From assembly GCA_032718475.1 (NCBI GenBank), contig JAUCBJ010001685.1, positions 1 through 61,423 of the forward strand: 61,423 nt of DNA, read 5' to 3'. Origin of the DNA: Nemertoderma westbladi (lineage: Eukaryota > Animalia > Xenacoelomorpha). Every line of letters starts with the position of its first letter. The first letter of the stretch is position 1. Both the position numbers and the translations under genes were made by a program. The notes below the pieces were generated by a model. The model did no database searches. It was not told the origin of the DNA and saw only the letters and a program-made list of their open reading frames with translations. This document shows, one piece after another, positions 3,896 through 60,684 of the stretch.

Positions 3896-4073
3896 GTCGG
3901 TGCAGATGAAACTCTACACCGTAACCAAACGACAGTTCCTCTTCGTTTTCGCCGGTTTTTTCGTCGCGTTTGGGATTACCATACTTATCGGTACAGCTGG
4001 CCCCACTATAATCCGGAAAGCTGATCCTATTGAGTTTAACAGAGACGATCCGGCCACGGCTAACGCGCTAAAG
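3896..4073 (+). CDS. TMEM181: TMEM181 exon 2
   Basis: Pyrimidine tract, TGCAG|G TCG GTG CAG ATG, donor AAG|GTATGT. Encodes SVQMKLYTVTKRQFLFVFAGFFVAFGITILIGTAGP, matching the TMEM181 N-terminal motif MRLYTLSKRHF...F.GLTIF.G..GP. Confidence 0.9.
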
Positions 4074-9809: not shown

Positions 9810-10022
9810 ACTGCCTCGTTTATGATAGAGAGCCCTTTGGTATCGCCGTTCAACCAACAACTGTGGTTGACTTCCTTCATACGAATACGTAATCCGGCGA
9901 ACACTCGTCTCGAGATTCCGTTCTCTATTCACGTGGAGGTTCAGGGCCAATCTAATGACGAGAGCGTCATCATTGCGTCAAACGCACAGAACCGAACCAG
10001 GACGCTGACATGCGACGCCAAG
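9810..10022 (+). CDS. TMEM181: TMEM181 exon 3
   Basis: TTCCAG|ACT acceptor and first donor AAG|GTAAGA at 10023. Encodes ...SPLVSPFNQQLWLT...V.V.G...NRTRTLTCDAK, matching TMEM181 motifs NQQLWLT and NRTRTLTC. Phase 0 at both ends. Confidence 0.92.
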
Positions 10023-10673
10023 GTAAGACGGAACACTCAGGACCGAACCAGGACGCTGACATGCGATACCAAGGTAAGAGGGAACACTCAGGACCGAACC
10101 AGGACGCTGACATGAGACGACAAGGTAAGACGGAACACTCAGGACCGAACCAGGACGCTGACATGCGACGCCAAGGTAAGACAGAACACTTAGGACCGAA
10201 CCAGGACGCTGACATGAGACGCCAAGGTAAGAGGGAACACTCAGGACCGAACCAGGACGCTGACATGCGACGCCAAGGTAAGAGGGAACACTCAGGACCG
10301 AACCAGGACGCTGACATGCGACGCCAAGGTAAGACGGAACACTCAGGACCGAACCAGGACGCTGACATGAGACGCCAAGGTAAGAGGGAACTCTCAGGAC
10401 CGAACCAGGACGCTGACATGAGACGCCAAGGTAAGACGGAACACTCAGGACCGAACCAGGACGCTGACATGCGACGCCAAGGTAAGAGGGAACTCTCAGG
10501 ACCGAACCAGGACGCTGACATGAGACGCCAAGGTAAGACGGAACACTCAGGACCGAACCAGGACGCTGACATGAGACGCCAAGGTAAGAGGGAACTCTCA
10601 GGACCGAACCAGGGCGCTGACATGCGACGCCAAGGTAAGGGGGAACACTCAGGACCGAACCAGGACGCTGACA
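9991..10673 (+). repeat. 51-bp tandem array of the exon 3 tail plus 5' splice site, 13 donors
   Basis: Unit GACCGAACCAGGACGCTGACATGCGACGCCAAG|GTAAGACGGAACACTCAG. Donors from 10023 to 10635 = 12 x 51. Confidence 0.97.
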
Positions 10674-18250: not shown

Positions 18251-18354
18251 ACAAGTCCGCTCGGCTGTCCGTTGGTGTCTGTCGGTCGGCGACAGAATGC
18301 AGCAGTGATGCTGCATATCACTCCGTCTGGTCGGTAAAGCGTCGACCCTTCAGC

Positions 18355-20559: not shown

Positions 20560-21764
20560 AACATTCTGCACAATAACAATGTACGTGTATCTACTATTAA
20601 GTACCAACCCCAACATTCTGCTCAATAACAATGTACGTGTATCTACTATTAAGTACCAACCCCAACATTCTGCACAATAAGAATGTACGTGTATCTACTT
20701 TTAAGTACCAACCCCAACATTCTGCACAATAAGAATGTACGTGTATCTACTTTTAAGTACCAACCCCAACATTCTGCACAATAAGAATGTAAGTGTATCT
20801 ACTATTAAGTACCAACCCCAACATTCTGCACAATAAGAATGTACGTGTATCTACTTTTAAGTACCAACCCCAACATTCTGCACAATAAGAATGTACGTGT
20901 ATCTACTTTTAAGTACCAACCCCAACATTCTGCTCAATAACAATGTACGTGTATCTACTATTAAGTACCAACCCCAACATTCTGCTCAATAACAATGTAC
21001 GTGTATCTACTATTAAGTACCAACCCCAACATTCTGTACAATAAGAATGTACGTGTATCTACTATTAAGTACCAACCCCAACATTCTGCACAATAAGAAT
21101 GTACGTGTATCTACTATTAAGTACCAACCCCAACATTCTGCACAATAAGAATGTACGTGTATCTACTATTAAGTACCAACCCCAACATTCTGCACAATAA
21201 GAATGTACGTGTATCTACTATTAAGTACCAACCCCAACATTCTGCACAATAAGAATGTACGTGTATCTACTATTAAGTACCAACCCCAACATTCTGCTCA
21301 ATAACAATGTACGTGTATCTACTATTAAGTACCAACCCCAACATTCTGCACAATAAGAATGTACGTGTATCTACTATTAAGTACCAACCCCAACATTCTG
21401 CACAATAAGAATGTACGTGTATCTACTATTAAGTACCAACCCCAACATTCTGCACAATAAGAATGTACGTGTATCTACTATTAAGTACCAACCCCAACAT
21501 TCTGCACAATAAGAATGTACGTGTATCTACTATTAAGTACCAACCCCAACATTCTGCTCAATAACAATGTACGTGTATCTACTATTAAGTACCAACCCCA
21601 ACATTCTGCTCAATAACAATGTACGTGTATCTACTATTAAGTACCAACCCCAACATTCTGCACAATAAGAATGTACGTGTATCTACTATTAAGTACCAAC
21701 CCCAACATTCTGCACAATAAGAATGTACGTGTATCTACTATTAAGTACCAACCCCAACATTCTG
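20560..21764. repeat. 52-bp minisatellite, about 23 copies
   Basis: Unit AACATTCTGCACAATAAGAATGTACGTGTATCTACTATTAAGTACCAACCCC; period 52 (20612 to 20664). Confidence 0.98.
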
Positions 21765-23906: not shown

Positions 23907-24155
23907 CAGATAGGGGGGGGGGGGGGAAATAGATGCAATAAAAATTCATTCCTCTCCAGGGGAAATTCGACGCAAATAACAGCTGATTATTCTCAAAAAT
24001 AAAACTGTAACCTGTTCTATTGTGCTTAGTTTATTGTTTTGGTTCAAATAACGTGCCACTGTAACATTAAGAATTTAACATTGAGGCGGGATATTAATTC
24101 GCCAAGGCGGGTTTTGCGTCCAGTTTCCCCCCCCCCCCCCCCCCCCCCCTGTCTC
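23907..24155. mobile_element. About 250-bp MITE with 8-bp TSD (hAT-like)
   Basis: Ends CAGATAG(G)nAAATAGATGCAA and TTGCGTCCAGTTT(C)nTGTCTC, flanked by GCTCAACC at 23899-23906 and 24156-24163. A partial inverted copy lies at 44826-44990. Confidence 0.7.
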
Positions 24156-24923: not shown

Positions 24924-25126
24924 CTAACCACCTTAGTTAAAAATAACAACTAAATGAGACCAATGATCTAATTCTAACCACCTTAGTTAAAAATAACAAC
25001 TAAATGAGACCAATGATCTAATTCTAACCACCTTAGTTAAAAATAACAACTAAATGAGACCAATGATCTAATTCTAACCACCTTAGTTAAAAATAACAAC
25101 TAAATGAGACCAATGATCTAATTCTA
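24924..25126. repeat. 50-bp tandem repeat, 4 perfect copies
   Basis: CTAACCACCTTAGTTAAAAATAACAACTAAATGAGACCAATGATCTAATT; period 50 (24931, 24981, 25031, 25081). Confidence 0.97.
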
Positions 25127-25339
25127 GAACATTCATATTATATCTCAATTTTAACTGAAAGTTAGAAAAGGCAAAACAATCTTGAAAAAAGGCTAGATAA
25201 AAAGCTTGCAAAAAAGCTAGAGAAAAAGCTCAAAAAAAAGCTTCAGAAAAGCTCAGAATACCTCACATAAAAAAGCAGCGCGGAAACGGCCCTTTACTGA
25301 ATTATTGTCAATTAATTTAATTTTGTTTATTTATTTTAG

Positions 25340-25459
25340 AATTGTACTGAGTTTATAGTGCTACACCTGGGTTACCTAGACTACCCGAAATATTTAATAA
25401 CGGCGGATTTTTACGAACTTTCGAGCATAGACTACGAAATGACCGACGTTACATTTAGG
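25340..25459 (+). CDS. TMEM181: TMEM181 exon 4 (absent from the ORF track)
   Basis: TTTTAG|AAT...AGG|GTGAGT, 120 nt, phase 0/0. Encodes NCTEFIVLHLGYLDYPKYLITADFYELSSIDYEMTDVTFR, matching TMEM181 C.EIIV.HLGYL.Y..Y. Confidence 0.92.
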
Positions 25460-25468
25460 GTGAGTACG

Positions 25469-25537
25469 GTTGCCATAGATACTGTGAGGTAAACAATAAA
25501 CAGATATACGATTGCCATAGATACAGTTCGGTAAACA
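25469..25537. promoter_or_regulatory. Two tandem X-box (RFX)-like plus forkhead-like modules
   Basis: GTTGCCATAGATAC (25469) with GTAAACA (25489), and ATTGCCATAGATAC (25511) with GTAAACA (25531). A third module is at 27449/27469. Motif match only. Confidence 0.4.
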
Positions 25538-25597
25538 AATAGAGACCACGTGAAGAATACCAGAGTTTCTGCCGTTATATTTCACTTTGCAGATACC

Positions 25598-27430
25598 CCA
25601 TATGAAGAATACCAGGTTTTCACCAAAAACACAGGTTACAGAAGGGGTGAATATAACCAAAACAATAAACGAATTAGTATATGTACAGGTTATAAGACAG
25701 AAATAAGTCATATAAAACACTTAAGGGGGGGGTACACCCCCCTATGGACCTTTTTTGCAAATGGCTATAATTTCTGCTTGTGTGTAATTTTGTATATTTT
25801 ATACCTTTCGGAGGATTAACATATGGCCAAAGATTGGGTTCAAAAAAAAATTTTTCAAATTTGCGTCGCCCTCTAGCGGCCACCAGCGAAATTGTTAATT
25901 TCACTAAAAACACTACTAGTCTCACAATTTTGAGCGAAAATTTTCGAAACTTGGTTTTTCTGAATCAGCATCCTTGGCTCCACAAAACTTATCGGTTACA
26001 TTTTTTATTTAGGCCTTAAATATTTTTAAATGTTATTAACTAATATTAATTATTACTTAATAGATATTAACTAATTTCAAGAAATTAATATGGCACAATT
26101 CAAAATTCTAACCGATAACTTTTGATCAAAACCCGAAAAGAAATCAAACAAAAAAAAAAATTCGAAAATTGGTTAAGAAATGGCTGAGTAGTAGTATTTT
26201 GAATGTGAAAAATACAATTCCGAGATAAACGCATTTAAAGTTTAAGAACAATATATTTCAAATGTTCCCGCTATTTTCAGTACTGGTATCTCCTTTTATT
26301 TTTTCCATTGGTTATCCCCTATCCATATTTTGTGATTTCTCAATGGATTTCATGAAATTTGGTTCAAAAAAACCCCTACCCACTTTTAACAACCTGTTAA
26401 AATAATTTTAGAGTGCTTTCCAAAAAACACTTCGCGCAGCACGTGAACAAATTACATTTTGGCGTATTGATTTGATCGCATACTTTTTAGTCATTAGTAA
26501 TAAATAGTCATGGAATAATGAGATAACCTTAAGAAACATTCAAAATTATATAAAAATTTCCACATAATTTTATAATAAGCCTTTACACAGAACATTAAGC
26601 TTTGTGCAGCACGTGAAACCTTCGCGCAGCACGTGAGACATTTGCGCAGCAGGTGAAGGTTTCACGTAGAACTTAAATTCTTCATAAAGCACGTTAATTA
26701 ATCGAGCACCTCGGAAAGCTTTTTGATCAGAATGAGAAGCCTTCACGCGGCACATGAAAAGTTCATGCTGCACATGAAGACTTCGCGCAGCACGTGAATT
26801 ATTCTCAGAGCCTGCGGAATTTAAAAAAAATAGATTTATGGTTGTTTCCCAGAATAATTATTACTAGCTATTGTTATATGATGGTTCACATTTGTTATTA
26901 CTAGTAGACAACTAGTCCATTAGACAACTGTTCAATATTTAATACAAAACTCACAAATATCTATTAAATATATATTAATTAAAATTTGACGGACATGTTG
27001 ACAGACAGACAGACATACAAACAGACAGACAAACTTAGAGACAGACTGAGATACAGACATAGTGTGATTAGATAATTCCAAACATTAAAACAGACATCGA
27101 CATTAAGAAAAATCCTAACAGTAAACATTTCAGATTGCTTATTTTATGCCCTTTTTAATATTTCGATGGACAGACAGACAGACATACAGACGGAAAACCA
27201 GCCATTACTCGAGAAGTAAAAGAGATCTCGCTAAGCCGTTTCCAGATTTGAATTCCGCATTAAATTCTACTCTAGATGAAATAAAAAAACAAAAAATGAA
27301 AATTTTGACCTGAGGGGGGGTGTACCCCCCCCTTAATAAACATAAATTAAAAAAAATAAAAATCTTCATATATAAAATTCCAATAAAAAGTCGACCGAAA
27401 AGTGAAATCCTGGTATTCTTCACATATGGG
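25598..27430. mobile_element. Outer TIR element hosting the Kolobok-like insertion
   Basis: CCCATATGAAGAATACCAGGTTTTCAC at 25598 is the imperfect reverse complement of GTGAAATCCTGGTATTCTTCACATATGGG ending at 27430. An extra TGAAGAATACCAG lies at 25551. TSD not resolved. Confidence 0.6.
25725..27332. mobile_element. Non-autonomous Kolobok-like DNA transposon, 1.6 kb
   Basis: TTAA on both sides (25721-25724, 27333-27336) and TIR GGGGGGGGTACACCCCCC. A TTAA TSD with GG..CC ends fits Kolobok rather than piggyBac (CC..GG). Internal TTCGCGCAGCACGTGA and ACAG repeats; no transposase ORF. Confidence 0.8.
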
Positions 27431-28145
27431 CGACAAATACACTAAAGGGTTGTCATAGATATAATTAAGTAAACAAATATACCATTTTATTCTTCTACTA
27501 TACGATACGTGTTATACTTTTATACTCATTAATTTATTTTATTCTACAGTTCGGTCTACGTTTTGCCAATAGCGCTACGCTAAACTGAAAGTTAACTGCG
27601 TATTAAGGTTAACGCTTAATATTATTTAAGATAACAACAAACCTGCGCTAACAGATATATTAGTTTATCGATTGCTGTTCACAAAGGATTTTAGTTCACA
27701 ATTAATTAAGTGTGTTTGCAGCACCAAGCGTAGCAGCTTGTAAAAACACTTTTATATCTACTAAAGCTGTATTGGTTAATAAAGGATATTAGTTCAGACA
27801 ATTAAGTTTGTTTGTATGTACCAAGCGTAGCAGGAGCAGCGTGTAAGATAAATAAACTGTATTTATACAAATGCTATACATTTTATTGAATTATCCTTAC
27901 AATACAAAGCTAACCAATTGATCCTTATGGAGGCTACTCTTAGGATCTTACACTGGGGGCTACTATCTTATGGTTCCTTGTGACGGAGGCTACCATATGG
28001 ATCCTTATGGAGTCTACACTATAGATACTCTATTAATATCCAATAATTATTAATTATTGGTCTTGATAAATATGATAGATATCGTTCGCCGTGCCTGCGG
28101 CATTATCGTGCTGAATTTTACCCCCAATGTTATTATTCCCTTCAG

Positions 28146-28326
28146 TTTGTATCCTACAACCCGATGTTTACACAACTAGAGATTTGGTTTCGGTTTATTT
28201 TTCTCGTTCTCACCTTCATCGTGACCTGTCTGTTCGCACATTCCATGAAAAAGTTCCCGGTTCGAGATTGGTCTATCGAACAGAAATGGATGGCCATCCT
28301 ACTTCCTCTCCTGTTGTTGTACAACG
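28146..28326 (+). CDS. TMEM181: TMEM181 exon 5
   Basis: CCCTTCAG|TTT...AAC G|GTAAGT (phase 1). Encodes FVSYNPMFTQLEIWFRFIFLVLTFIVTCLFAHSMKKFPVRDWSIEQKWMAILLPLLLLYN, the strongly conserved TMEM181 core, and joins exon 6 to rebuild the conserved YNDP. Confidence 0.96.
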
Positions 28327-31300
28327 GTAAGTCGTTTACTGTGGCCATCCTACTTCCTCTCATGTTGTTGTACAACGGTAAGTCGTTTACTGTGGCCATC
28401 CTACTTCCTCTCCTGTTGTTGTACAACGGTAAGTCGTTTACTGTGGCCATCCTACTTCCTCTCCTGTTGTTGTACAACGGTAAGTCGTTTACTGTGGCCA
28501 TCCTACTTCCTCTCCTGTTGTTGTACAACGGTAAGTCGTTTACTGTGGCCATCCTACTTCATCTCCTGTTGTTGTACAACGGTAAGTCGTTTACTGTGGC
28601 CATCCTACTTCCTCTCCTGTTGTTGTACAACGGTAAGTCGTTTACTGTGGCCATCCTACTTCCTCTCCTGTTGTTGTACAACGGTAAGTCGTTTACTGTG
28701 GCCATCCTACTTCCTCTCCTGTTGTTGTACAACGGTAAGTCGTTTACTGTGGCCATCCTACTTCATCTCCTGTTGTTGTACAACGGTAAGTCGTTTACTG
28801 TGGCCATCCTACTTCCTCTCCTGTTGTTGTACAACGGTAAGTCGTTTACTGTGGCCATCCTACTTCCTCTCCTGTTGTTGTACAACGGTAAGTCGTTTAC
28901 TGTGGCCATCCTACTTCCTCTCCTGTTGTTGTACAACGGTAAGTCGTTTACTGTGGCCATCCTACTTCCTCTCCTGTTGTTGTACAACGGTAAGTCGTTT
29001 ACTGTGGCCATCCTACTTCCTCTCCTGTTGTTGTACAACGGTAAGTCGTTTACTGTGGCCATCCTACTTCCTCTCCTGTTGTTGTACAACGGTAAGTCGT
29101 TTACTGTGGCCATCCTACTTCCTCTCCTGTTGTTGTACAACGGTAAGTCGTTTACTGTGGCCATCCTACTTCATCTCCTGTTGTTGTACAACGGTAAGTC
29201 GTTTACTGTGGCCATCCTACTTCCTCTCCTGTTGTTGTACAACGGTAAGTCGTTTACTGTGGCCATCCTACTTCCTCTCCTGTTGTTGTACAACGGTAAG
29301 TCGTTTACTGTGGCCATCCTACTTCCTCTCCTGTTGTTGTACAACGGTAAGTCGTTTACTGTGGCCATCCTACTTCCTCTCCTGTTGTTGTACAACGGTA
29401 AGTCGTTTACTGTGGCCATCCTACTTCCTCTCCTGTTGTTGTACAACGGTAAGTCGTTTACTGTGGCCATCCTACTTCCTCTCCTGTTGTTGTACAACGG
29501 TAAGTCGTTTACTGTGGCCATCCTACTTCCTCTACTGTTGTTGTACAACGGTAAGTCGTTTACTGTGGCCATCCTACTTCCTCTCCTGTTGTTGTACAAC
29601 GGTAAGTCGTTTACTGTGGCCATCCTACTTCCTCTCCTGTTGTTGTACAACGGTAAGTCGTTTACTGTGGCCATCCTACTTCCTCTCCTGTTGTTGTACA
29701 ACGGTAAGTCGTTTACTGTGGCCATCCTACTTCCTCTCCTGTTGTTGTACAACGGTAAGTTGTTTACTGTGGCCATCCTACTTCCTCTCCTGTTGTTGTA
29801 CAACGGTAAGTCGTTTACTGTGGCCATCCTACTTCCTCTCCTGTTGTTGTACAACGGTAAGTTGTTTACTGTGGCCATCCTACTTCCTCTCCTGTTGTTG
29901 TACAACGGTAAGTCGTTTACTGTGGCCATCCTACTTCCTCTCCTGTTGTTGTACAACGGTAAGTCGTTTACTGTGGCCATCCTACTTCCTCTCCTGTTGT
30001 TGTACAACGGTAAGTCGTTTACTGTGGCCATCCTACTTCCTCTCCTGTTGTTGTACAACGGTAAGTCGTTTACTGTGGCCATCCTACTTCCTCTCCTGTT
30101 GTTGTACAACGGTAAGTCGTTTACTGTGGCCATCCTACTTCCTCTCCTGTTGTTGTACAACGGTAAGTTGTTTACTGTGGCCATCCTACTTCCTCTCCTG
30201 TTGTTGTACAACGGTAAGTCGTTTACTGTGGCCATCCTACTTCCTCTCCTGTTGTTGTACAACGGTAAGTTGTTTACTGTGGCCATCCTACTTCCTCTCC
30301 TGTTGTTGTACAACGGTAAGTTGTTTACTGTGGCCATCCTACTTCCTCTCCTGTTGTTGTACAACGGTAAGTCGTTTACTGTGGCCATCCTACTTCCTCT
30401 ACTGTTGTTGTACAACGGTAAGTCGTTTACTGTGGCCATCCTACTTCCTCTCCTGTTGTTGTACAACGGTAAGTTGTTTACTGTGGCCATCCTACTTCCT
30501 CTACTGTTGTTGTACAACGGTAAGTCGTTTACTGTGGCCATCCTACTTCCTCTCCTGTTGTTGTACAACGGTAAGTCGTTTACTGTGGCCATCCTACTTC
30601 CTCTCCTGTTGTTGTACAACGGTAAGTCGTTTACTGTGGCCATCCTACTTCCTCTCCTGTTGTTGTACAACGGTAAGTCGTTTACTGTGGCCATCCTACT
30701 TCCTCTCCTGTTGTTGTACAACGGTAAGTCGTTTACTGTGGCCATCCTACTTCCTCTCCTGTTGTTGTACAACGGTAAGTCGTTTACTGTGGCCATCCTA
30801 CTTCCTCTCCTGTTGTTGTACAACGGTAAGTCGTTTACTGTGGCCATCCTACTTCCTCTCCTGTTGTTGTACAACGGTAAGTCGTTTACTGTGGCCATCC
30901 TACTTCCTCTCCTGTTGTTGTACAACGGTAAGTCGTTTACTGTGGCCATCCTACTTCCTCTCCTGTTGTTGTACAACGGTAAGTCGTTTACTGTGGCCAT
31001 CCTACTTCCTCTCCTGTTGTTGTACAACGGTAAGTCGTTTACTGTGGCCATCCTACTTCCTCTCCTGTTGTTGTACAACGGTAAGTCGTTTACTGTGGCC
31101 ATCCTACTTCCTCTCCTGTTGTTGTACAACGGTAAGTCGTTTACTGTGGCCATCCTACTTCCTCTCCTGTTGTTGTACAACGGTAAGTCGTTTACTGTGG
31201 CCATCCTACTTCCTCTCCTGTTGTTGTACAACGGTAAGTCGTTTACTGTGGCCATCCTACTTCCTCTCCTGTTGTTGTACAACGGTAAGTCGTTTACTGT

Positions 31301-34300
31301 GGCCATCCTACTTCCTCTCCTGTTGTTGTACAACGGTAAGTCGTTTACTGTGGCCATCCTACTTCCTCTCCTGTTGTTGTACAACGGTAAGTCGTTTACT
31401 GTGGCCATCCTACTTCCTCTCCTGTTGTTGTACAACGGTAAGTCGTTTACTGTGGCCATCCTACTTCCTCTCCTGTTGTTGTACAACGGTAAGTCGTTTA
31501 CTGTGGCCATCCTACTTCCTCTCCTGTTGTTGTACAACGGTAAGTCGTTTACTGTGGCCATCCTACTTCCTCTCCTGTTGTTGTACAACGGTAAGTCGTT
31601 TACTGTGGCCATCCTACTTCCTCTCCTGTTGTTGTACAACGGTAAGTCGTTTACTGTGGCCATCCTACTTCCTCTCCTGTTGTTGTACAACGGTAAGTCG
31701 TTTACTGTGGCCATCCTACTTCCTCTCCTGTTGTTGTACAACGGTAAGTCGTTTACTGTGGCCATCCTACTTCCTCTCCTGTTGTTGTACAACGGTAAGT
31801 CGTTTACTGTGGCCATCCTACTTCCTCTCCTGTTGTTGTACAACGGTAAGTCGTTTACTGTGGCCATCCTACTTCCTCTCCTGTTGTTGTACAACGGTAA
31901 GTCGTTTACTGTGGCCATCCTACTTCCTCTCCTGTTGTTGTACAACGGTAAGTCGTTTACTGTGGCCATCCTACTTCCTCTCCTGTTGTTGTACAACGGT
32001 AAGTCGTTTACTGTGGCCATCCTACTTCCTCTCCTGTTGTTGTACAACGGTAAGTCGTTTACTGTGGCCATCCTACTTCCTCTCCTGTTGTTGTACAACG
32101 GTAAGTCGTTTACTGTGGCCATCCTACTTCCTCTCCTGTTGTTGTACAACGGTAAGTCGTTTACTGTGGCCATCCTACTTCCTCTCATGTTGTTGTACAA
32201 CGGTAAGTCGTTTACTGTGGCCATCCTACTTCCTCTCCTGTTGTTGTACAACGGTAAGTCGTTTACTGTGGCCATCCTACTTCCTCTCCTGTTGTTGTAC
32301 AACGGTAAGTCGTTTACTGTGGCCATCCTACTTCCTCTCCTGTTGTTGTACAACGGTAAGTCGTTTACTGTGGCCATCCTACTTCCTCTCCTGTTGTTGT
32401 ACAACGGTAAGTCGTTTACTGTGGCCATCCTACTTCCTCTCCTGTTGTTGTACAACGGTAAGTCGTTTACTGTGGCCATCCTACTTCCTCTCCTGTTGTT
32501 GTACAACGGTAAGTCGTTTACTGTGGCCATCCTACTTCCTCTCCTGTTGTTGTACAACGGTAAGTCGTTTACTGTGGCCATCCTACTTCCTCTCCTGTTG
32601 TTGTACAACGGTAAGTCGTTTACTGTGGCCATCCTACTTCCTCTCCTGTTGTTGTACAACGGTAAGTCGTTTACTGTGGCCATCCTACTTCCTCTCCTGT
32701 TGTTGTACAACGGTAAGTCGTTTACTGTGGCCATCCTACTTCCTCTCCTGTTGTTGTACAACGGTAAGTCGTTTACTGTGGCCATCCTACTTCCTCTCCT
32801 GTTGTTGTACAACGGTAAGTCGTTTACTGTGGCCATCCTACTTCCTCTCCTGTTGTTGTACAACGGTAAGTCGTTTACTGTGGCCATCCTACTTCCTCTC
32901 CTGTTGTTGTACAACGGTAAGTCGTTTACTGTGGCCATCCTACTTCCTCTCCTGTTGTTGTACAACGGTAAGTCGTTTACTGTGGCCATCCTACTTCCTC
33001 TCCTGTTGTTGTACAACGGTAAGTCGTTTACTGTGGCCATCCTACTTCCTCTCCTGTTGTTGTACAACGGTAAGTCGTTTACTGTGGCCATCCTACTTCC
33101 TCTCCTGTTGTTGTACAACGGTAAGTCGTTTACTGTGGCCATCCTACTTCCTCTCCTGTTGTTGTACAACGGTAAGTCGTTTACTGTGGCCATCCTACTT
33201 CCTCTCCTGTTGTTGTACAACGGTAAGTCGTTTACTGTGGCCATCCTACTTCCTCTCCTGTTGTTGTACAACGGTAAGTCGTTTACTGTGGCCATCCTAC
33301 TTCCTCTCCTGTTGTTGTACAACGGTAAGTCGTTTACTGTGGCCATCCTACTTCCTCTCCTGTTGTTGTACAACGGTAAGTCGTTTACTGTGGCCATCCT
33401 ACTTCCTCTCCTGTTGTTGTACAACGGTAAGTCGTTTACTGTGGCCATCCTACTTCCTCTCCTGTTGTTGTACAACGGTAAGTCGTTTACTGTGGCCATC
33501 CTACTTCCTCTCCTGTTGTTGTACAACGGTAAGTCGTTTACTGTGGCCATCCTACTTCCTCTCCTGTTGTTGTACAACGGTAAGTCGTTTACTGTGGCCA
33601 TCCTACTTCCTCTCCTGTTGTTGTACAACGGTAAGTCGTTTACTGTGGCCATCCTACTTCCTCTCCTGTTGTTGTACAACGGTAAGTCGTTTACTGTGGC
33701 CATCCTACTTCCTCTCCTGTTGTTGTACAACGGTAAGTCGTTTACTGTGGCCATCCTACTTCCTCTCCTGTTGTTGTACAACGGTAAGTCGTTTACTGTG
33801 GCCATCCTACTTCCTCTCCTGTTGTTGTACAACGGTAAGTCGTTTACTGTGGCCATCCTACTTCCTCTCCTGTTGTTGTACAACGGTAAGTCGTTTACTG
33901 TGGCCATCCTACTTCCTCTCCTGTTGTTGTACAACGGTAAGTCGTTTACTGTGGCCATCCTACTTCCTCTCCTGTTGTTGTACAACGGTAAGTCGTTTAC
34001 TGTGGCCATCCTACTTCCTCTCCTGTTGTTGTACAACGGTAAGTCGTTTACTGTGGCCATCCTACTTCCTCTCCTGTTGTTGTACAACGGTAAGTCGTTT
34101 ACTGTGGCCATCCTACTTCCTCTCCTGTTGTTGTACAACGGTAAGTCGTTTACTGTGGCCATCCTACTTCCTCTCCTGTTGTTGTACAACGGTAAGTCGT
34201 TTACTGTGGCCATCCTACTTCCTCTCCTGTTGTTGTACAACGGTAAGTCGTTTACTGTGGCCATCCTACTTCCTCTCCTGTTGTTGTACAACGGTAAGTC

Positions 34301-37300
34301 GTTTACTGTGGCCATCCTACTTCCTCTCCTGTTGTTGTACAACGGTAAGTCGTTTACTGTGGCCATCCTACTTCCTCTCCTGTTGTTGTACAACGGTAAG
34401 TCGTTTACTGTGGCCATCCTACTTCCTCTCCTGTTGTTGTACAACGGTAAGTCGTTTACTGTGGCCATCCTACTTCCTCTCCTGTTGTTGTACAACGGTA
34501 AGTCGTTTACTGTGGCCATCCTACTTCCTCTCCTGTTGTTGTACAACGGTAAGTCGTTTACTGTGGCCATCCTACTTCCTCTCCTGTTGTTGTACAACGG
34601 TAAGTCGTTTACTGTGGCCATCCTACTTCCTCTCATGTTGTTGTACAACGGTAAGTCGTTTACTGTGGCCATCCTACTTCCTCTCCTGTTGTTGTACAAC
34701 GGTAAGTCGTTTACTGTGGCCATCCTACTTCCTCTCCTGTTGTTGTACAACGGTAAGTCGTTTACTGTGGCCATCCTACTTCCTCTCCTGTTGTTGTACA
34801 ACGGTAAGTCGTTTACTGTGGCCATCCTACTTCCTCTCCTGTTGTTGTACAACGGTAAGTCGTTTACTGTGGCCATCCTACTTCCTCTCCTGTTGTTGTA
34901 CAACGGTAAGTCGTTTACTGTGGCCATCCTACTTCCTCTCCTGTTGTTGTACAACGGTAAGTCGTTTACTGTGGCCATCCTACTTCCTCTCCTGTTGTTG
35001 TACAACGGTAAGTCGTTTACTGTGGCCATCCTACTTCCTCTCCTGTTGTTGTACAACGGTAAGTCGTTTACTGTGGCCATCCTACTTCCTCTCCTGTTGT
35101 TGTACAACGGTAAGTCGTTTACTGTGGCCATCCTACTTCCTCTCCTGTTGTTGTACAACGGTAAGTCGTTTACTGTGGCCATCCTACTTCCTCTCCTGTT
35201 GTTGTACAACGGTAAGTCGTTTACTGTGGCCATCCTACTTCCTCTCCTGTTGTTGTACAACGGTAAGTCGTTTACTGTGGCCATCCTACTTCCTCTCCTG
35301 TTGTTGTACAACGGTAAGTCGTTTACTGTGGCCATCCTACTTCCTCTCCTGTTGTTGTACAACGGTAAGTCGTTTACTGTGGCCATCCTACTTCCTCTCC
35401 TGTTGTTGTACAACGGTAAGTCGTTTACTGTGGCCATCCTACTTCCTCTACTGTTGTTGTACAACGGTAAGTCGTTTACTGTGGCCATCCTACTTCCTCT
35501 CCTGTTGTTGTACAACGGTAAGTCGTTTACTGTGGCCATCCTACTTCCTCTCCTGTTGTTGTACAACGGTAAGTCGTTTACTGTGGCCATCCTACTTCCT
35601 CTCCTGTTGTTGTACAACGGTAAGTCGTTTACTGTGGCCATCCTACTTCCTCTCCTGTTGTTGTACAACGGTAAGTCGTTTACTGTGGCCATCCTACTTC
35701 CTCTCCTGTTGTTGTACAACGGTAAGTCGTTTACTGTGGCCATCCTACTTCCTCTCCTGTTGTTGTACAACGGTAAGTCGTTTACTGTGGCCATCCTACT
35801 TCCTCTCCTGTTGTTGTACAACGGTAAGTCGTTTACTGTGGCCATCCTACTTCCTCTCCTGTTGTTGTACAACGGTAAGTCGTTTACTGTGGCCATCCTA
35901 CTTCCTCTCCTGTTGTTGTACAACGGTAAGTCGTTTACTGTGGCCATCCTACTTCCTCTCCTGTTGTTGTACAACGGTAAGTCGTTTACTGTGGCCATCC
36001 TACTTCCTCTCCTGTTGTTGTACAACGGTAAGTCGTTTACTGTGGCCATCCTACTTCCTCTCCTGTTGTTGTACAACGGTAAGTCGTTTACTGTGGCCAT
36101 CCTACTTCCTCTCCTGTTGTTGTACAACGGTAAGTCGTTTACTGTGGCCATCCTACTTCCTCTCCTGTTGTTGTACAACGGTAAGTCGTTTACTGTGGCC
36201 ATCCTACTTCCTCTCCTGTTGTTGTACAACGGTAAGTCGTTTACTGTGGCCATCCTACTTCCTCTCCTGTTGTTGTACAACGGTAAGTCGTTTACTGTGG
36301 CCATCCTACTTCCTCTCCTGTTGTTGTACAACGGTAAGTCGTTTACTGTGGCCATCCTACTTCCTCTCCTGTTGTTGTACAACGGTAAGTCGTTTACTGT
36401 GGCCATCCTACTTCCTCTCCTGTTGTTGTACAACGGTAAGTCGTTTACTGTGGCCATCCTACTTCCTCTCCTGTTGTTGTACAACGGTAAGTCGTTTACT
36501 GTGGCCATCCTACTTCCTCTCCTGTTGTTGTACAACGGTAAGTCGTTTACTGTGGCCATCCTACTTCCTCTCCTGTTGTTGTACAACGGTAAGTCGTTTA
36601 CTGTGGCCATCCTACTTCCTCTCCTGTTGTTGTACAACGGTAAGTCGTTTACTGTGGCCATCCTACTTCCTCTCATGTTGTTGTACAACGGTAAGTCGTT
36701 TACTGTGGCCATCCTACTTCCTCTCATGTTGTTGTACAACGGTAAGTCGTTTACTGTGGCCATCCTACTTCCTCTCCTGTTGTTGTACAACGGTAAGTCG
36801 TTTACTGTGGCCATCCTACTTCCTCTCCTGTTGTTGTACAACGGTAAGTCGTTTACTGTGGCCATCCTACTTCCTCTCCTGTTGTTGTACAACGGTAAGT
36901 CGTTTACTGTGGCCATCCTACTTCCTCTCATGTTGTTGTACAACGGTAAGTCGTTTACTGTGGCCATCCTACTTCCTCTCCTGTTGTTGTACAACGGTAA
37001 GTCGTTTATTGTGGCCATCCTACTCCTCTCCTGTTGTTGTACAACGGTAAGTCGTTTACTGTGGCCATCCTACTTCCTCTCCTGTTGTTGTACAACGGTA
37101 AGTCGTTTACTGTGGCCATCCTACTTCCTCTCCTGTTGTTGTACAACGGTAAGTCGTTTACTGTGGCCATCCTACTTCCTCTCCTGTTGTTGTACAACGG
37201 TAAGTCGTTTACTGTGGCCATCCTACTTCCTCTCCTGTTGTTGTACAACGGTAAGTCGTTTACTGTGGCCATCCTACTTCCTCTCCTGTTGTTGTACAAC

Positions 37301-40300
37301 GGTAAGTCGTTTACTGTGGCCATCCTACTTCCTCTCCTGTTGTTGTACAACGGTAAGTCGTTTACTGTGGCCATCCTACTTCCTCTCCTGTTGTTGTACA
37401 ACGGTAAGTCGTTTACTGTGGCCATCCTACTTCCTCTCATGTTGTTGTACAACGGTAAGTCGTTTACTGTGGCCATCCTACTTCCTCTCCTGTTGTTGTA
37501 CAACGGTAAGTCGTTTACTGTGGCCATCCTACTTCCTCTCCTGTTGTTGTACAACGGTAAGTCGTTTACTGTGGCCATCCTACTTCCTCTCCTGTTGTTG
37601 TACAACGGTAAGTCGTTTACTGTGGCCATCCTACTTCCTCTCCTGTTGTTGTACAACGGTAAGTCGTTTACTGTGGCCATCCTACTTCCTCTCCTGTTGT
37701 TGTACAACGGTAAGTCGTTTACTGTGGCCATCCTACTTCCTCTCCTGTTGTTGTACAACGGTAAGTCGTTTACTGTGGCCATCCTACTTCCTCTCCTGTT
37801 GTTGTACAACGGTAAGTCGTTTACTGTGGCCATCCTACTTCCTCTCCTGTTGTTGTACAACGGTAAGTCGTTTACTGTGGCCATCCTACTTCCTCTCCTG
37901 TTGTTGTACAACGGTAAGTCGTTTACTGTGGCCATCCTACTTCCTCTCCTGTTGTTGTACAACGGTAAGTCGTTTACTGTGGCCATCCTACTTCCTCTCC
38001 TGTTGTTGTACAACGGTAAGTCGTTTACTGTGGCCATCCTACTTCCTCTCCTGTTGTTGTACAACGGTAAGTCGTTTACTGTGGCCATCCTACTTCCTCT
38101 CCTGTTGTTGTACAACGGTAAGTCGTTTACTGTGGCCATCCTACTTCCTCTCCTGTTGTTGTACAACGGTAAGTCGTTTACTGTGGCCATCCTACTTCCT
38201 CTCCTGTTGTTGTACAACGGTAAGTCGTTTACTGTGGCCATCCTACTTCCTCTCCTGTTGTTGTACAACGGTAAGTCGTTTACTGTGGCCATCCTACTTC
38301 CTCTCCTGTTGTTGTACAACGGTAAGTCGTTTACTGTGGCCATCCTACTTCCTCTCCTGTTGTTGTACAACGGTAAGTCGTTTACTGTGGCCATCCTACT
38401 TCCTCTCCTGTTGTTGTACAACGGTAAGTCGTTTACTGTGGCCATCCTACTTCCTCTCCTGTTGTTGTACAACGGTAAGTCGTTTACTGTGGCCATCCTA
38501 CTTCCTCTCCTGTTGTTGTACAACGGTAAGTCGTTTACTGTGGCCATCCTACTTCCTCTCCTGTTGTTGTACAACGGTAAGTCGTTTACTGTGGCCATCC
38601 TACTTCCTCTCCTGTTGTTGTACAACGGTAAGTCGTTTACTGTGGCCATCCTACTTCCTCTCCTGTTGTTGTACAACGGTAAGTCGTTTACTGTGGCCAT
38701 CCTACTTCCTCTCCTGTTGTTGTACAACGGTAAGTCGTTTACTGTGGCCATCCTACTTCCTCTCCTGTTGTTGTACAACGGTAAGTCGTTTACTGTGGCC
38801 ATCCTACTTCCTCTCCTGTTGTTGTACAACGGTAAGTCGTTTACTGTGGCCATCCTACTTCCTCTCCTGTTGTTGTACAACGGTAAGTCGTTTACTGTGG
38901 CCATCCTACTTCCTCTCCTGTTGTTGTACAACGGTAAGTCGTTTACTGTGGCCATCCTACTTCCTCTCCTGTTGTTGTACAACGGTAAGTCGTTTACTGT
39001 GGCCATCCTACTTCCTCTCCTGTTGTTGTACAACGGTAAGTCGTTTACTGTGGCCATCCTACTTCCTCTCCTGTTGTTGTACAACGGTAAGTCGTTTACT
39101 GTGGCCATCCTACTTCCTCTCCTGTTGTTGTACAACGGTAAGTCGTTTACTGTGGCCATCCTACTTCCTCTCCTGTTGTTGTACAACGGTAAGTCGTTTA
39201 CTGTGGCCATCCTACTTCCTCTCCTGTTGTTGTACAACGGTAAGTCGTTTACTGTGGCCATCCTACTTCCTCTCCTGTTGTTGTACAACGGTAAGTCGTT
39301 TACTGTGGCCATCCTACTTCCTCTCCTGTTGTTGTACAACGGTAAGTCGTTTACTGTGGCCATCCTACTTCCTCTCCTGTTGTTGTACAACGGTAAGTCG
39401 TTTACTGTGGCCATCCTACTTCCTCTCCTGTTGTTGTACAACGGTAAGTCGTTTACTGTGGCCATCCTACTTCCTCTCCTGTTGTTGTACAACGGTAAGT
39501 CGTTTACTGTGGCCATCCTACTTCCTCTCCTGTTGTTGTACAACGGTAAGTCGTTTACTGTGGCCATCCTACTTCCTCTCCTGTTGTTGTACAACGGTAA
39601 GTCGTTTACTGTGGCCATCCTACTTCCTCTCCTGTTGTTGTACAACGGTAAGTCGTTTACTGTGGCCATCCTACTTCCTCTCCTGTTGTTGTACAACGGT
39701 AAGTCGTTTACTGTGGCCATCCTACTTCCTCTCCTGTTGTTGTACAACGGTAAGTCGTTTACTGTGGCCATCCTACTTCCTCTCCTGTTGTTGTACAACG
39801 GTAAGTCGTTTACTGTGGCCATCCTACTTCCTCTCCTGTTGTTGTACAACGGTAAGTCGTTTACTGTGGCCATCCTACTTCCTCTCCTGTTGTTGTACAA
39901 CGGTAAGTCGTTTACTGTGGCCATCCTACTTCCTCTCCTGTTGTTGTACAACGGTAAGTCGTTTACTGTGGCCATCCTACTTCCTCTCCTGTTGTTGTAC
40001 AACGGTAAGTCGTTTACTGTGGCCATCCTACTTCCTCTCCTGTTGTTGTACAACGGTAAGTCGTTTACTGTGGCCATCCTACTTCCTCTCCTGTTGTTGT
40101 ACAACGGTAAGTCGTTTACTGTGGCCATCCTACTTCCTCTCCTGTTGTTGTACAACGGTAAGTCGTTTACTGTGGCCATCCTACTTCCTCTCCTGTTGTT
40201 GTACAACGGTAAGTCGTTTACTGTGGCCATCCTACTTCCTCTCCTGTTGTTGTACAACGGTAAGTCGTTTACTGTGGCCATCCTACTTCCTCTCCTGTTG

Positions 40301-43300
40301 TTGTACAACGGTAAGTCGTTTACTGTGGCCATCCTACTTCCTCTCCTGTTGTTGTACAACGGTAAGTCGTTTACTGTGGCCATCCTACTTCCTCTCCTGT
40401 TGTTGTACAACGGTAAGTCGTTTACTGTGGCCATCCTACTTCCTCTCCTGTTGTTGTACAACGGTAAGTCGTTTACTGTGGCCATCCTACTTCCTCTCCT
40501 GTTGTTGTACAACGGTAAGTCGTTTACTGTGGCCATCCTACTTCCTCTCCTGTTGTTGTACAACGGTAAGTCGTTTACTGTGGCCATCCTACTTCCTCTC
40601 CTGTTGTTGTACAACGGTAAGTCGTTTACTGTGGCCATCCTACTTCCTCTCCTGTTGTTGTACAACGGTAAGTCGTTTACTGTGGCCATCCTACTTCCTC
40701 TCCTGTTGTTGTACAACGGTAAGTCGTTTACTGTGGCCATCCTACTTCCTCTCCTGTTGTTGTACAACGGTAAGTCGTTTACTGTGGCCATCCTACTTCC
40801 TCTCCTGTTGTTGTACAACGGTAAGTCGTTTACTGTGGCCATCCTACTTCCTCTCCTGTTGTTGTACAACGGTAAGTCGTTTACTGTGGCCATCCTACTT
40901 CCTCTCCTGTTGTTGTACAACGGTAAGTCGTTTACTGTGGCCATCCTACTTCCTCTCCTGTTGTTGTACAACGGTAAGTCGTTTACTGTGGCCATCCTAC
41001 TTCCTCTCCTGTTGTTGTACAACGGTAAGTCGTTTACTGTGGCCATCCTACTTCCTCTCCTGTTGTTGTACAACGGTAAGTCGTTTACTGTGGCCATCCT
41101 ACTTCCTCTCCTGTTGTTGTACAACGGTAAGTCGTTTACTGTGGCCATCCTACTTCCTCTCCTGTTGTTGTACAACGGTAAGTCGTTTACTGTGGCCATC
41201 CTACTTCCTCTCCTGTTGTTGTACAACGGTAAGTCGTTTACTGTGGCCATCCTACTTCCTCTCCTGTTGTTGTACAACGGTAAGTCGTTTACTGTGGCCA
41301 TCCTACTTCCTCTCCTGTTGTTGTACAACGGTAAGTCGTTTACTGTGGCCATCCTACTTCCTCTCCTGTTGTTGTACAACGGTAAGTCGTTTACTGTGGC
41401 CATCCTACTTCCTCTCCTGTTGTTGTACAACGGTAAGTCGTTTACTGTGGCCATCCTACTTCCTCTCCTGTTGTTGTACAACGGTAAGTCGTTTACTGTG
41501 GCCATCCTACTTCCTCTCCTGTTGTTGTACAACGGTAAGTCGTTTACTGTGGCCATCCTACTTCCTCTCCTGTTGTTGTACAACGGTAAGTCGTTTACTG
41601 TGGCCATCCTACTTCCTCTCCTGTTGTTGTACAACGGTAAGTCGTTTACTGTGGCCATCCTACTTCCTCTCCTGTTGTTGTACAACGGTAAGTCGTTTAC
41701 TGTGGCCATCCTACTTCCTCTCCTGTTGTTGTACAACGGTAAGTCGTTTACTGTGGCCATCCTACTTCATCTCCTGTTGTTGTACAACGGTAAGTCGTTT
41801 ACTGTGGCCATCCTACTTCCTCTCCTGTTGTTGTACAACGGTAAGTCGTTTACTGTGGCCATCCTACTTCCTCTCCTGTTGTTGTACAACGGTAAGTCGT
41901 TTACTGTGGCCATCCTACTTCCTCTCCTGTTGTTGTACAACGGTAAGTCGTTTACTGTGGCCATCCTACTTCCTCTCCTGTTGTTGTACAACGGTAAGTC
42001 GTTTACTGTGGCCATCCTACTTCCTCTCCTGTTGTTGTACAACGGTAAGTCGTTTACTGTGGCCATCCTACTTCCTCTCCTGTTGTTGTACAACGGTAAG
42101 TCGTTTACTGTGGCCATCCTACTTCCTCTCCTGTTGTTATACAACGGTAAGTCGTTTATTGTGGCCATCCTACTTCCTCTCATGTTGTTGTACAACGGTA
42201 AGTCGTTTACTGTGGCCATCCTACTTCATCTCCTATTGTTGTACAACGGTAAGTCGTTTACTGTGGCCATCCTACTTCCTCTCCTGTTGTTGTACAACGG
42301 TAAGTCGTTTACTGTGGCCATCCTACTTCATCTCCTGTTGTTGTACAACGGTAAGTCGTTTACTGTGGCCATCCTACTTCCTCTCCTGTTGTTGTACAAC
42401 GGTAAGTCGTTTACTGTGGCCATCCTACTTCCTCTCCTGTTGTTGTACAACGGTAAGTCGTTTACTGTGGCCATCCTACCTCCTCTCCTGTTGTTGTACA
42501 ACGGTAAGTCGTTTACTGTGGCCATCCTACTTCCTCTCATGTTGTTGTACAACGGTAAGTCGTTTACTGTGGCCATCCTACTTCCTCTCCTGTTGTTGTA
42601 CAACGGTAAGTCGTTTACTGTGGCCATCCTACTTCCTCTCCTGTTGTTGTACAACGGTAAGTCGTTTACTGTGGCCATCCTACCTCCTCTCCTGTTGTTG
42701 TACAACGGTAAGTCGTTTACTGTGGCCATCCTACTTCCTCTCATGTTGTTGTACAACGGTAAGTCGTTTACTGTGGCCATCCTACTTCCTCTCCTGTTGT
42801 TGTACAACGGTAAGTCGTTTACTGTGGCCATCCTACTTCCTCTCCTGTTGTTGTACAACGGTAAGTCGTTTATTGTGGCCATCCTACTTCCTCTCCTGTT
42901 GTTGTACAACGGTAAGTCGTTTACTGTGGCCATCCTACTTCCTCTCCTGTTGTTGTACAACGGTAAGTCGTTTATTGTGGCCATCCTACTTCCTCTCCTG
43001 TTGTTGTACAACGGTAAGTCGTTTACTGTGGCCATCCTACTTCCTCTCCTGTTGTTGTACAACGGTAAGTCGTTTACTGTGGCCATCCTACTTCCTCTCC
43101 TGTTGTTGTACAACGGTAAGTCGTTTACTGTGGCCATCCTACTTCCTCTCCTGTTGTTGTACAACGGTAAGTCGTTTACTGTGGCCATCCTACTTCCTCT
43201 CCTGTTGTTGTACAACGGTAAGTCGTTTATTGTGGCCATCCTACTTCCTCTCATGTTGTTGTACAACGGTAAGTCGTTTACTGTGGCCATCCTACTTCAT

Positions 43301-44713
43301 CTCCTGTTGTTGTACAACGGTAAGTCGTTTACTGTGGCCATCCTACTTCCTCTCATGTTGTTGTACAACGGTAAGTCGTTTACTGTGGCCATCCTACTTC
43401 CTCTCCTGTTGTTGTACAACGGTAAGTCGTTTACTGTGGCCATCCTACTTCCTCTCCTGTTGTTGTACAACGGTAAGTCGTTTACTGTGGCCATCCTACT
43501 TCCTCTCCTGTTGTTGTACAACGGTAAGTCGTTTACTGTGGCCATCCTACTTCCTCTCCTGTTGTTGTACAACGGTAAGTCGTTTACTGTGGCCATCCTA
43601 CTTCCTCTCATGTTGTTGTACAACGGTAAGTCGTTTACTGTGGCCATCCTACTTCCTCTCCTGTTGTTGTACAACGGTAAGTCGTTTACTGTGGCCATCC
43701 TACTTCCTCTCCTGTTGTTGTACAACGGTAAGTCGTTTACTGTGGCCATCCTACTTCATCTCCTGTTGTTATACAACGGTAAGTCGTTTACTGTGGCCAT
43801 CCTACTTCCTCTCCTGTTGTTGTACAACGGTAAGTCGTTTACTGTGGCCATCCTACTTCCTCTCCTGTTGTTGTACAACGGTAAGTCGTTTACTGTGGCC
43901 ATCCTACTTCCTCTCCCTGTTGTTGTACAACGGTAAGTCGTTTACTGTGGCCATCCTACTTCCTCTCCTGTTGTTGTACAACGGTAAGTCGTTTACTGTG
44001 GCCATCCTACTTCCTCTCCTGTTGTTGTACAACGGTAAGTCGTTTACTGTGGCCATCCTACTTCCTCTCCTGTTGTTGTACAACGGTAAGTCGTTTACTG
44101 TGGCCATCCTACTTCATCTCCTGTTGTTATACAACGGTAAGTCGTTTACTGTGGCCATCCTACTTCCTCTCCTGTTGTTGTACAACGGTAAGTCGTTTAC
44201 TGTGGCCATCCTACTTCCTCTCCTGTTGTTGTACAACGGTAAGTCGTTTACTGTGGCCATCCTACTTTCTCTGATGTTGAGTACAACGGTAAGTCGTTTA
44301 CTGTGGCCATCCTACTTCCTCTCCTGTTGTTGTACAACGGTAAGTCGTTTACTGTGGCCATCCTACTTCCTCTCATGTTGTTGTACAACGGTAAGTCGTT
44401 TACTGTGGCCATCCTACTTCATCTCCTGTTGTTGTACAACGGTAAGTCGTTTACTGTGGCCATCCTACTTGCTCTCCTGTTGTTGTACAACGGTAAGTCG
44501 TTTACTGTGGCCATCCTACTTCCTCTCCTGTTGTTGTACAACGGTAAATCGTTTACTGTGGCCATCCTACTTCCTCTCATGTTGTTGTACAACGGTAAGT
44601 CGTTTACTGTGGCCATCCTACTTGCTCTCCTGTTGTTGTACAACGGTAAGTCGTTTACTGTGGCCATCCTACTCCATCTCCTGTTGTTGTGTACAACGGT
44701 AAGTCGTTTACTG
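28291..44713 (+). repeat. 16.4-kb, 51-bp tandem array of the exon 5 tail plus 5' splice site, about 322 copies
   Basis: Unit TGGCCATCCTACTTCCTCTCCTGTTGTTGTACAACG|GTAAGTCGTTTACTG (36 nt exon + 15 nt intron). First donor 28327, last 44699; with the four indels seen (net +1) this equals 321 x 51. Confidence 0.99.
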
Positions 44714-44825: not shown

Positions 44826-44990
44826 AGGGAAAGGAGCAGGTTACAGTGGCACGTTATTTTAACCAAAACAATAAACTAAGCACAATAGAACAGGTTACAG
44901 TTTTATTTTTGAGAGTAATCAGCTGTTATTTGCGTCGAATTTCACCTGGAGAGGGATGAATTTTTATTGCGTCCAGTTTCCCTCTATCTG
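44826..44990 (-). mobile_element. Partial inverted copy of the MITE at 23907-24155
   Basis: Near-identical reverse complement of about 23907-24065, ending in CTATCTG (reverse complement of the CAGATAG terminus). Confidence 0.75.
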
Positions 44991-60556: not shown

Positions 60557-60684
60557 ACCCGATATTCCCACTGACATTCCTGGTAGATTCTTGGATTCCC
60601 GGTTTATTCGATGGTTTATTCCAATCCACCTTCCTTTCTGTGCTTCTCCTGTTTTGGTTATGTGTTTATCATGGAATACGACAG
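60557..60684 (+). CDS. TMEM181: TMEM181 exon 6
   Basis: TTTTTTCCTCTATAG|AC CCG...CAG|GTGAGT. Encodes (D)PIFPLTFLVDSWIPGLFDGLFQSTFLSVLLLFWLCVYHGIRQ, matching TMEM181 DPFFPL.FLV.SW.PG..D.LFQ...LLLFWLCVYHGIR. Confidence 0.96.

What the first reader, a model, noticed from the sequence alone, without database searches (positions are those of the whole stretch)
28291..44713. About 322 tandem copies of a functional exon end and its 5' splice site
Seen: the last 36 nt of TMEM181 exon 5 and the first 15 nt of the intron are amplified over 16.4 kb. The consensus is identical to the coding exon, and G|GTAAGT is intact in essentially every copy (one GTAAAT near 44545). The period is 17 codons with no stop in the TMEM181 frame, so each of the first 171 donors (28327-36997) could splice to exon 6 in frame and add n copies of the hydrophobic peptide GKSFTVAILLPLLLLYN to a membrane protein. 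The only AG in the unit lies inside GTAAG. Inference, three alternatives: (a) the spliceosome strictly picks the first of hundreds of identical donors, a natural test of exon definition; (b) a ladder of isoforms with variable membrane segments is made; (c) the array is a dense U1 snRNP landing zone affecting elongation or premature polyadenylation across the 32-kb intron. Together with the exon 3 array, this is the best candidate here for an undescribed system.
Basis: partly seen in the sequence, partly recalled or inferred. Interest (0 to 1): 0.92.

Follow-up and report, generated by a model that had tools for sequence, protein, structure and literature searches.

The report
Giant splice-donor minisatellite in TMEM181
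An animal membrane-protein gene carries 322 back-to-back copies of one exon's end plus its splice signal; the repeat is real, but it is an unusually large case of an oddity already known from human and lancelet genes, and the cell likely keeps using the first signal.

Summary
In detail: 322 copies of a 51-bp unit (36 nt exon 5 end plus 15 nt intron) fill 28291-44713 of a TMEM181 gene, and 321 keep G|GTAAGT. Short-read contigs from three samples in three studies hold the unit junction. In run X1 its depth is 390-880 times single-copy DNA, so this is not an assembly expansion. One run (X4, inferred to be RNA) holds the normal exon 5-exon 6 junction. There the repeat is only 12 times deeper, against about 160 times if donors were used evenly, so a broad isoform ladder is unlikely. 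Donor 1 could not be told from later donors directly. Variants show no selection for coding or for keeping donors, and the exon 3 array has in-frame stops. This is a donor-spanning minisatellite like human F7, IFI6 and CBS and the lancelet 'mirages'; in F7, first-donor choice was shown experimentally. It is over ten times larger than any case in the papers I saw. The scan has noted this type on other DNA (46 findings, at least 19 genomes, one with about 377 copies; unchecked notes). Not an undescribed system.

The parts
28146..28326 (+). TMEM181 exon 5 (181 nt); its last 36 nt (28291-28326) are the exonic part of unit 1
   Evidence: 72-81% identical to TMEM181 proteins; Pfam WLS-like_TM E 1.5e-20; AG/GT ends
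28327..28332 (+). Donor 1 (ACG|GTAAGT), the inferred authentic 5' splice site
   Evidence: Joining to exon 6 gives the YN-DP motif of homologues; 7 of 11 letters match the recalled U1-pairing consensus
28291..44713 (+). 51-bp minisatellite, 322 copies, 36 nt exon end plus 15 nt intron start; homogeneous centre, more variable edges
   Evidence: unit junction in contigs of X1, X2, X4, X5
28327..36997 (+). Donors 1-171, in frame with exon 6
43933..44239 (+). Donors 307-313, back in frame after a -1 and a +1 indel
60557..60684 (+). TMEM181 exon 6 (128 nt), the acceptor exon for all donors
   Evidence: tblastn; boundaries; X4 contig joins the exon 5 end to 128 letters that begin with this exon
9987..10673 (+). 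Second donor-spanning minisatellite at exon 3: 51 bp x 13.5, 13 donors, in-frame stops in 7 of 13 units, first in unit 3
9810..10022 (+). TMEM181 exon 3
25340..25459 (+). TMEM181 exon 4
   Evidence: X4 contig of 716 letters lies on 25339-25459 only
3896..4073 (+). TMEM181 exon 2 (exon 1 ends at 2511; exon 7 starts at 61227)

Best explanation
This is a real, greatly expanded intronic minisatellite whose seed spans the exon 5 splice donor of TMEM181, and it is likely near-neutral because splicing likely uses the first donor and removes the other 321 with the intron. Steps: (1) a 51-bp piece covering the exon end and intron start was duplicated in tandem (the unit structure is shown; the event is inferred). 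(2) The first copy remains the intact exon and later copies fall in the intron (shown). (3) Unequal exchange or conversion expanded and homogenised the array (inferred from 25 of 71 variant segments at the 3' edge and 12 of 50 at the 5' edge against 8 of 200 in the centre). (4) The donor nearest exon 5's acceptor is likely committed first during transcription, as in F7 (inferred by analogy, bounded by X4 depth). A small leak to donors 2-3, as in IFI6 and CBS, would add 17-34 residues and is not excluded.
For: Anatomy. Present in three samples of three studies, at 390-880 times single-copy depth in X1. Normal exon 5-exon 6 junction in X4 at depth 118, similar to the exon 4 contig at 98. Repeat depth 1,422 in X4 equals 2-4 per copy, at or below the 5.6 per copy of a neighbouring dispersed repeat. 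No selection signal: 5 of 11 distinct substitutions silent, P 0.16; 1 of 11 in the donor 9-mer, P 0.40. The window breeds minisatellites: 18 merged arrays, 26,264 of 61,423 bases. Spacing across the junction is 13 residues in 112 of 120 homologues, and none of 120 repeats the motif. F7 minigenes with 1-12 units always used the most upstream donor (PMC1557585).
Against: Donor 1 was never seen directly: the X4 junction contig carries only 30 nt of the shared 36 nt. X4 is labelled 'DNA?' by the tool and its RNA nature is my inference. Contig depth is a crude measure, as the tool warns. The 12-fold repeat depth in X4 could partly be extended exons. Two of 18 arrays sit on donors against 0.08 expected (P about 0.003, post hoc), so birth is not random. 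F7 was tested only to 12 units and in mammalian cells.
Confidence: 0.76

Rival explanations
1. Isoform ladder: many downstream donors are used and add n copies of a 17-residue hydrophobic peptide to TMEM181, giving functional variable proteins.
For: The period is 17 codons; 178 of 322 donors are in frame. The donors are identical and none is predicted to be more buried than donor 1 (unpaired probability 0.26-0.35). The repeat is 12 times deeper than the junction in X4. IFI6 and CBS use two extra donors (PMC1557585, Introduction).
Against: Even use predicts repeat depth near 19,000 and last-donor use near 38,000; observed 1,422. The insert lands at the end of a predicted helix (216-236 of P0002, pLDDT about 55), in a 33-column block with no gaps across 30 homologues. 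By unit count most variants change the peptide. The exon 3 array has stops from unit 3. No database protein matched the repeated peptide (weak).
Confidence: 0.08
2. Regulatory U1 landing zone or decoy array: the 321 spare donors bind U1 and tune elongation, intron retention, nuclear retention or premature polyadenylation, so copy number sets TMEM181 output.
For: 321 perfect GTAAGT sites on the sense strand; high copy number in more than one animal. U1 suppression of proximal poly(A) sites is known (PMC6946686, abstract start in a search listing only). ATTAAA and AATAAA lie just after the array at 44734 and 44870.
Against: Donors are no better conserved than the rest of the unit. The unit is identical to the exon, so it looks young or converted rather than an old conserved element. 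Exon 4 and exon 5/6 contigs have similar depth in X4 (98 and 118, weak). Other arrays in the window grew without donors.
Confidence: 0.08
3. Read-through terminal exon: some transcripts ignore all donors, end at the poly(A) signal after the array and encode a repeat protein of about 5,500 residues.
For: The frame is open from exon 5 to 44702 despite four indels; ATTAAA at 44734.
Against: Two of three sense frames of the unit are stop-free and only 6 of 153 single changes create a stop, so openness is cheap (P 0.64 for 11 substitutions). After the indel at unit 172 the frame reads a different peptide. Per-copy depth in X4 is 2-4% of the junction.
Confidence: 0.04
4. Assembly expansion: a short array was inflated by the assembler.
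For: The centre is nearly invariant, and no contig spans the array.
Against: Unit contigs in X1 have depth 6,281-9,556 against 10.9-16.2 for single-copy flanks. In X2 summed depth reaches 30,587 against 25. X5 assembled the unit but no flank. Variant units are position-specific along the array.
Confidence: 0.03

Closest known systems
Human F7 intron 7 37-bp VNTR (Borensztajn et al. 2006, PMC1557585; read: abstract, Introduction, parts 3 and 4 of 6 covering Results and Discussion)
   Same: The first unit spans the exon-intron boundary, so identical donors are repeated in the intron; only the most upstream is used, whatever the copy number tested.
   Different: 5-9 copies with 4 exonic bases, against 322 copies with 36 exonic bases and an in-frame period here. 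First-donor use is shown there and inferred here.
Human IFI6 (6-16; 25 pseudo-sites), CBS intron 13 (15-20 units), LMNB2 (10-15 x 100 bp), PDGF intron 4 (16-18 x 81 bp), as summarised in the Introduction of PMC1557585 (original papers not seen)
   Same: Donor-spanning minisatellites; at most the first two extra donors are used.
   Different: The largest has 25 pseudo-sites; this array is more than ten times longer.
Lancelet 'mirage' minisatellites: Adh3, globins BflGb6/BflGb9, troponin C, PGBD5 (PMC3087553 and PMC3902484, passages; the original Adh3 paper PMC117041 was not held)
   Same: Invertebrate tandem copies of exon-intron boundaries, units 10-160 bp, homogenised inside with divergent edges, not disturbing normal splicing.
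   Different: The copy numbers I saw are 3-6 for globins; mirages occur at acceptors as well as donors, whereas both arrays here are at donors.

Membership tests
Donor-spanning minisatellite (F7 type, lancelet mirage) | Head-to-tail tandem array with a unit of about 10-160 bp | tested here: met
   51 bp x 322
Donor-spanning minisatellite (F7 type, lancelet mirage) | First unit spans a real exon-intron boundary | tested here: met
   junction contig in X4
Donor-spanning minisatellite (F7 type, lancelet mirage) | Donor sequence repeated unchanged in the intron | tested here: met
   321 of 322 intact
Donor-spanning minisatellite (F7 type, lancelet mirage) | mRNA spliced mainly from the most upstream donor | tested here: inconclusive
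   The junction is seen but with a 30-nt anchor only; even or last-donor use is disfavoured by depth
Donor-spanning minisatellite (F7 type, lancelet mirage) | Concerted evolution with divergent edges | tested here: met
   Variant segments 12 of 50 (5' edge), 8 of 200 (centre), 25 of 71 (3' edge)
Donor-spanning minisatellite (F7 type, lancelet mirage) | Length polymorphism between alleles or individuals | tested here: inconclusive
   High copy number in X1 and X2, but contig depths do not give allele lengths
Recursive splice sites (definition recalled) | Acceptor AG directly followed by donor GT after a pyrimidine tract | tested here: not met
   The only AG is inside GTAAG and is followed by TC
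Tandem alternative-exon arrays (Dscam-like, definition recalled) | Each copy has its own acceptor and donor | tested here: not met
   No YAG in the unit; the single AG is AAG and would define a 46-nt out-of-frame piece (and the unit sequence)
Regulatory decoy 5' splice-site clusters (U1-70K/LUC7 type; known to me from scan notes and recall) | Conserved donor look-alikes tied to a poison exon or retained intron | tested here: inconclusive
   No selection on donors within the array; no related genome was available to test conservation

The most novel reading that the evidence does not exclude
A donor-biased duplication process seeds arrays at 5' splice sites in this lineage. At 322 copies the first-donor rule becomes leaky, so a minority of TMEM181 transcripts (up to 12 extra units per mRNA on average) use later in-frame donors or stall. 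Array length would then be a heritable, mutable dial on the amount of intact TMEM181.
Probability: 0.12. Interest if true: 0.7.

Novelty: new member of a known kind. Interest (0 to 1): 0.33.

Why it matters
It extends a known oddity from about 25 to over 300 identical donors across 16 kb, which makes it a strong natural stress test of first-come donor choice in a non-mammalian animal. Existing RNA reads of 100 nt or more could measure the leak. Two such arrays in one gene also point to a bias for repeats to arise or survive at donors. If only donor 1 is used, the array is a large neutral passenger, of practical interest mainly because it gives gene predictors a false 5,500-codon frame.

Tried and rejected
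No whole genome is held for this window, so genome-wide donor enrichment was not testable. No RNA holder is listed by the run search, which is no evidence on expression; all 8 runs are contigs. I laid 5 of the 8 (X1, X2, X4, X8; X1, X2, X4, X5); X8 gave nothing. X4 has no cover over unique intron 4 and most of exon 5; a hole proves nothing, and the tool drops human-like records. RNA structure masking later donors: a z of -3.72 fell to -0.8 (35 of 200 shuffles as good) when the unit was shuffled before repeating, and donors 1-6 have similar unpaired probability; rejected. Selection on the peptide or the donors: not found; 3 of 14 distinct substitutions, confined to one indel-bearing unit (segment 313), were dropped before the test. 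A shared 36+15 split for both arrays: exact for exon 5, but exon 3 fits anything from 32+19 to 42+9, and periods of 50-52 occur in 4 of 7 arrays with period 30 or more; not treated as a rule. The repeated-peptide protein search found nothing among 7,993 candidates (weak). The sequence look-up in earlier findings gave two unrelated bacterial notes, and the place look-up gave none. Literature searches for a published array of hundreds of donors found none, but the library lacks most subscription papers. PMC10078293 (passages) gave nothing on repeated donors. Supplements were not consulted.

Full report
Observation. Tandem Repeats Finder reports one array at 28291-44713, period 51, 322.0 copies, 99% matches. 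GGTAAGT occurs 321 times inside it and once elsewhere in the window; the exception is GTAAAT at 44544. 271 of 322 fixed-offset units equal the first unit. Four indels break the period. Donors 1-171 and 307-313 are in frame with exon 6, 178 of 322 in all. The reading frame of exon 5 stays open to 44702. The unit's only AG lies inside GTAAG.

The gene. Exon 5 is 72-81% identical to TMEM181 proteins in the best 120 of 314 hits and matches Pfam WLS-like_TM. tblastn with 10 of those 120 proteins places exons 2-7 in order on the + strand, and the spliced model reads without a stop from exon 2 to exon 7 once boundaries were corrected. Donor 1 joined to exon 6 gives the YN-DP motif; 113 of 120 homologues have D or N followed by P or L there. 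TMEM181 is a GOLD-domain seven-transmembrane protein related to Wntless (PMC9711517, passages). The organism has no close relative in the protein database: a nested P2X gene has best hits near 50% in hemichordates and echinoderms. I call it an animal, probably an invertebrate, and did not place it further.

Is the length real? Five of eight listed runs hold the flanking stretch, from three studies. On 28040-28392, contigs of X1, X2, X4 and X5 cross the unit-to-unit junction. In X1 single contigs of the unit have depth 9,556 and 6,281, against 10.9-16.2 for single-copy flanks, a ratio of 390-880. That is copies per haploid set if the flank depth counts both chromosomes, or the sum of both alleles if it counts one; 322 lies inside the range. 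X1 may be the source of the assembly, so it is an independent method but perhaps not an independent animal. X2, another sample that differs in the flank, has flank depth 25 and summed depth up to 30,587; its deepest contigs were not printed, so I can say only 'hundreds'. The tool warns that depth is no copy number, so I use it for order of magnitude only. An assembly expansion is very unlikely.

Which donor is used? The tool labels all runs 'DNA?', but X4 behaves as RNA (my inference). One X4 contig lies on exon 4 alone and runs on for 595 letters. Another carries the last 30 nt of exon 5 followed by 128 letters, the length of exon 6, whose first 30 match exon 6 at 28 places, both differences silent. 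X1 and X2 show no such loose end, which argues against a processed DNA copy. The junction uses the repeated donor sequence, but 30 nt cannot separate donor 1 from its copies. Depth gives a rough bound: junction 118, exon 4 contig 98, repeat 1,422. Even use of all donors would give about 19,000 and use of the last donor about 38,000, so even use is capped at about 4-7% of mRNA, and the mean number of extra units at 12. The repeat depth equals 2-4 per copy, below the 5.6 per copy of the dispersed repeat in intron 4, so pre-mRNA, DNA carry-over or antisense read-through is enough to explain it. This assumes X4's animal has an array of similar size, and it does not exclude a short leak to donors 2-3.

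Signs of function. Of 14 distinct substitutions, 11 were tested: 5 are silent (expected share 42 of 153, P 0.16) and 1 hits the donor 9-mer (P 0.40); having no new stop has P 0.64. The extra peptide would land at the end of predicted helix 216-236 of homologue P0002 (mean pLDDT 63, about 55 locally), inside a 33-column block without gaps in 30 homologues. Spacing across it is 13 residues in 112 of 120 homologues; the 8 others are printed and look like truncated or mis-predicted models, and none repeats the motif. The exon 3 array has in-frame stops in 7 of 13 units, first in unit 3, so the two arrays do not share an open ladder. Folding gives no special role to donor 1.

Origin. Variants concentrate at the edges (12 of 50, 8 of 200, 25 of 71), the usual trace of tandem turnover, also described for lancelet mirages (PMC3087553). 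The window is rich in minisatellites: 18 merged arrays cover 26,264 of 61,423 bases. Two of the 18 match exons, both at donors and none at acceptors, against 0.08 expected at donors (P about 0.003). The window was flagged for this feature, so the figure is post hoc. A duplication of exon end plus intron start leaves the exon intact if the first donor wins, which explains survival (inference); why such seeds arise more often than chance is open. The left breakpoint lies inside a perfect 12-bp palindrome, one of 20 in the window, but the exon 3 unit has none.

Comparison with what is known. PMC1557585 describes this layout in human F7 and lists IFI6, CBS, LMNB2 and PDGF. With 50 constructs it shows that the most upstream functional donor is chosen, regardless of copy number up to 12 and of stronger downstream sites short of a perfect consensus. 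Lancelet mirages do not disturb splicing. The array meets the structural features of this class; first-donor use and length polymorphism were inconclusive here. It is neither a recursive splice site nor an array of whole exons. What is new is scale: 322 against at most 25 pseudo-sites in the papers I saw; five searches found no published case with hundreds of donors. Unchecked notes of this scan list 46 such findings in at least 19 genomes, one with about 377 copies, and one reports the same donor bias. I treat these as leads only.

Verdict. A real and very large member of a known kind, most likely near-neutral (0.76). Interest 0.33: a good natural test case with a cheap decisive test, not an undescribed system.

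Noticed in passing
window 45982-50967, minus strand: Uninterrupted 1,661-codon ORF nested antisense in TMEM181 intron 5, ending 1.3 kb from the array. Pfam ICE1_C E 2.2e-7, above the curated cut-off; the atlas lists an ICE1_C cluster second at 0.84, a lead only. Likely an intronless ICE1-like gene with an RG-rich tail. ICE1's role in snRNA transcription is recalled. Its read-through could put repeat sequence into RNA; four minus-strand poly(A) signals lie before the array.
   Followed up: partly
window 22184-23455, minus strand: Intronless full-length P2X receptor gene (423 aa, Pfam E 1.7e-133) nested antisense in intron 3; best hits about 50%. Animal P2X genes usually have many introns (recalled), so this may be a retrogene.
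   Followed up: partly
window 28288-28299 and 28316-28325: A perfect 12-bp palindrome straddles the left duplication breakpoint and a 10-bp palindrome sits just before the donor in every unit; possibly related to how the first duplication arose.
   Followed up: partly
window 28309: The single-copy exon 5 contigs of both X1 and X2 end at exactly 28309, one base before a third-codon position that is a silent variant in 4 array units. This may be a polymorphism shared between exon and array, or an assembly-graph effect.
   Followed up: no
window 5048-7415, 8194-9681, 14544-15699, 20559-21764, 24924-25126, 54264-56153: Further large intronic minisatellites (periods 30, 15, 23, 52, 50, 10); four of the window's arrays have periods of 50-52.
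   Followed up: no
window 25521-27446: Dispersed repeat with related ends in intron 4: about 85 times single-copy depth inside and far higher at the ends; looks like a non-autonomous DNA transposon.
   Followed up: no
window 44840-44982 and 23924-24065: A 143-bp dispersed element, 95% identical, in opposite orientation on either side of the array.
   Followed up: no
window 17689-18411: 240-codon ORF with DUF6451 (E 2.4e-5, below the curated cut-off), likely a LINE-type fragment.
   Followed up: no
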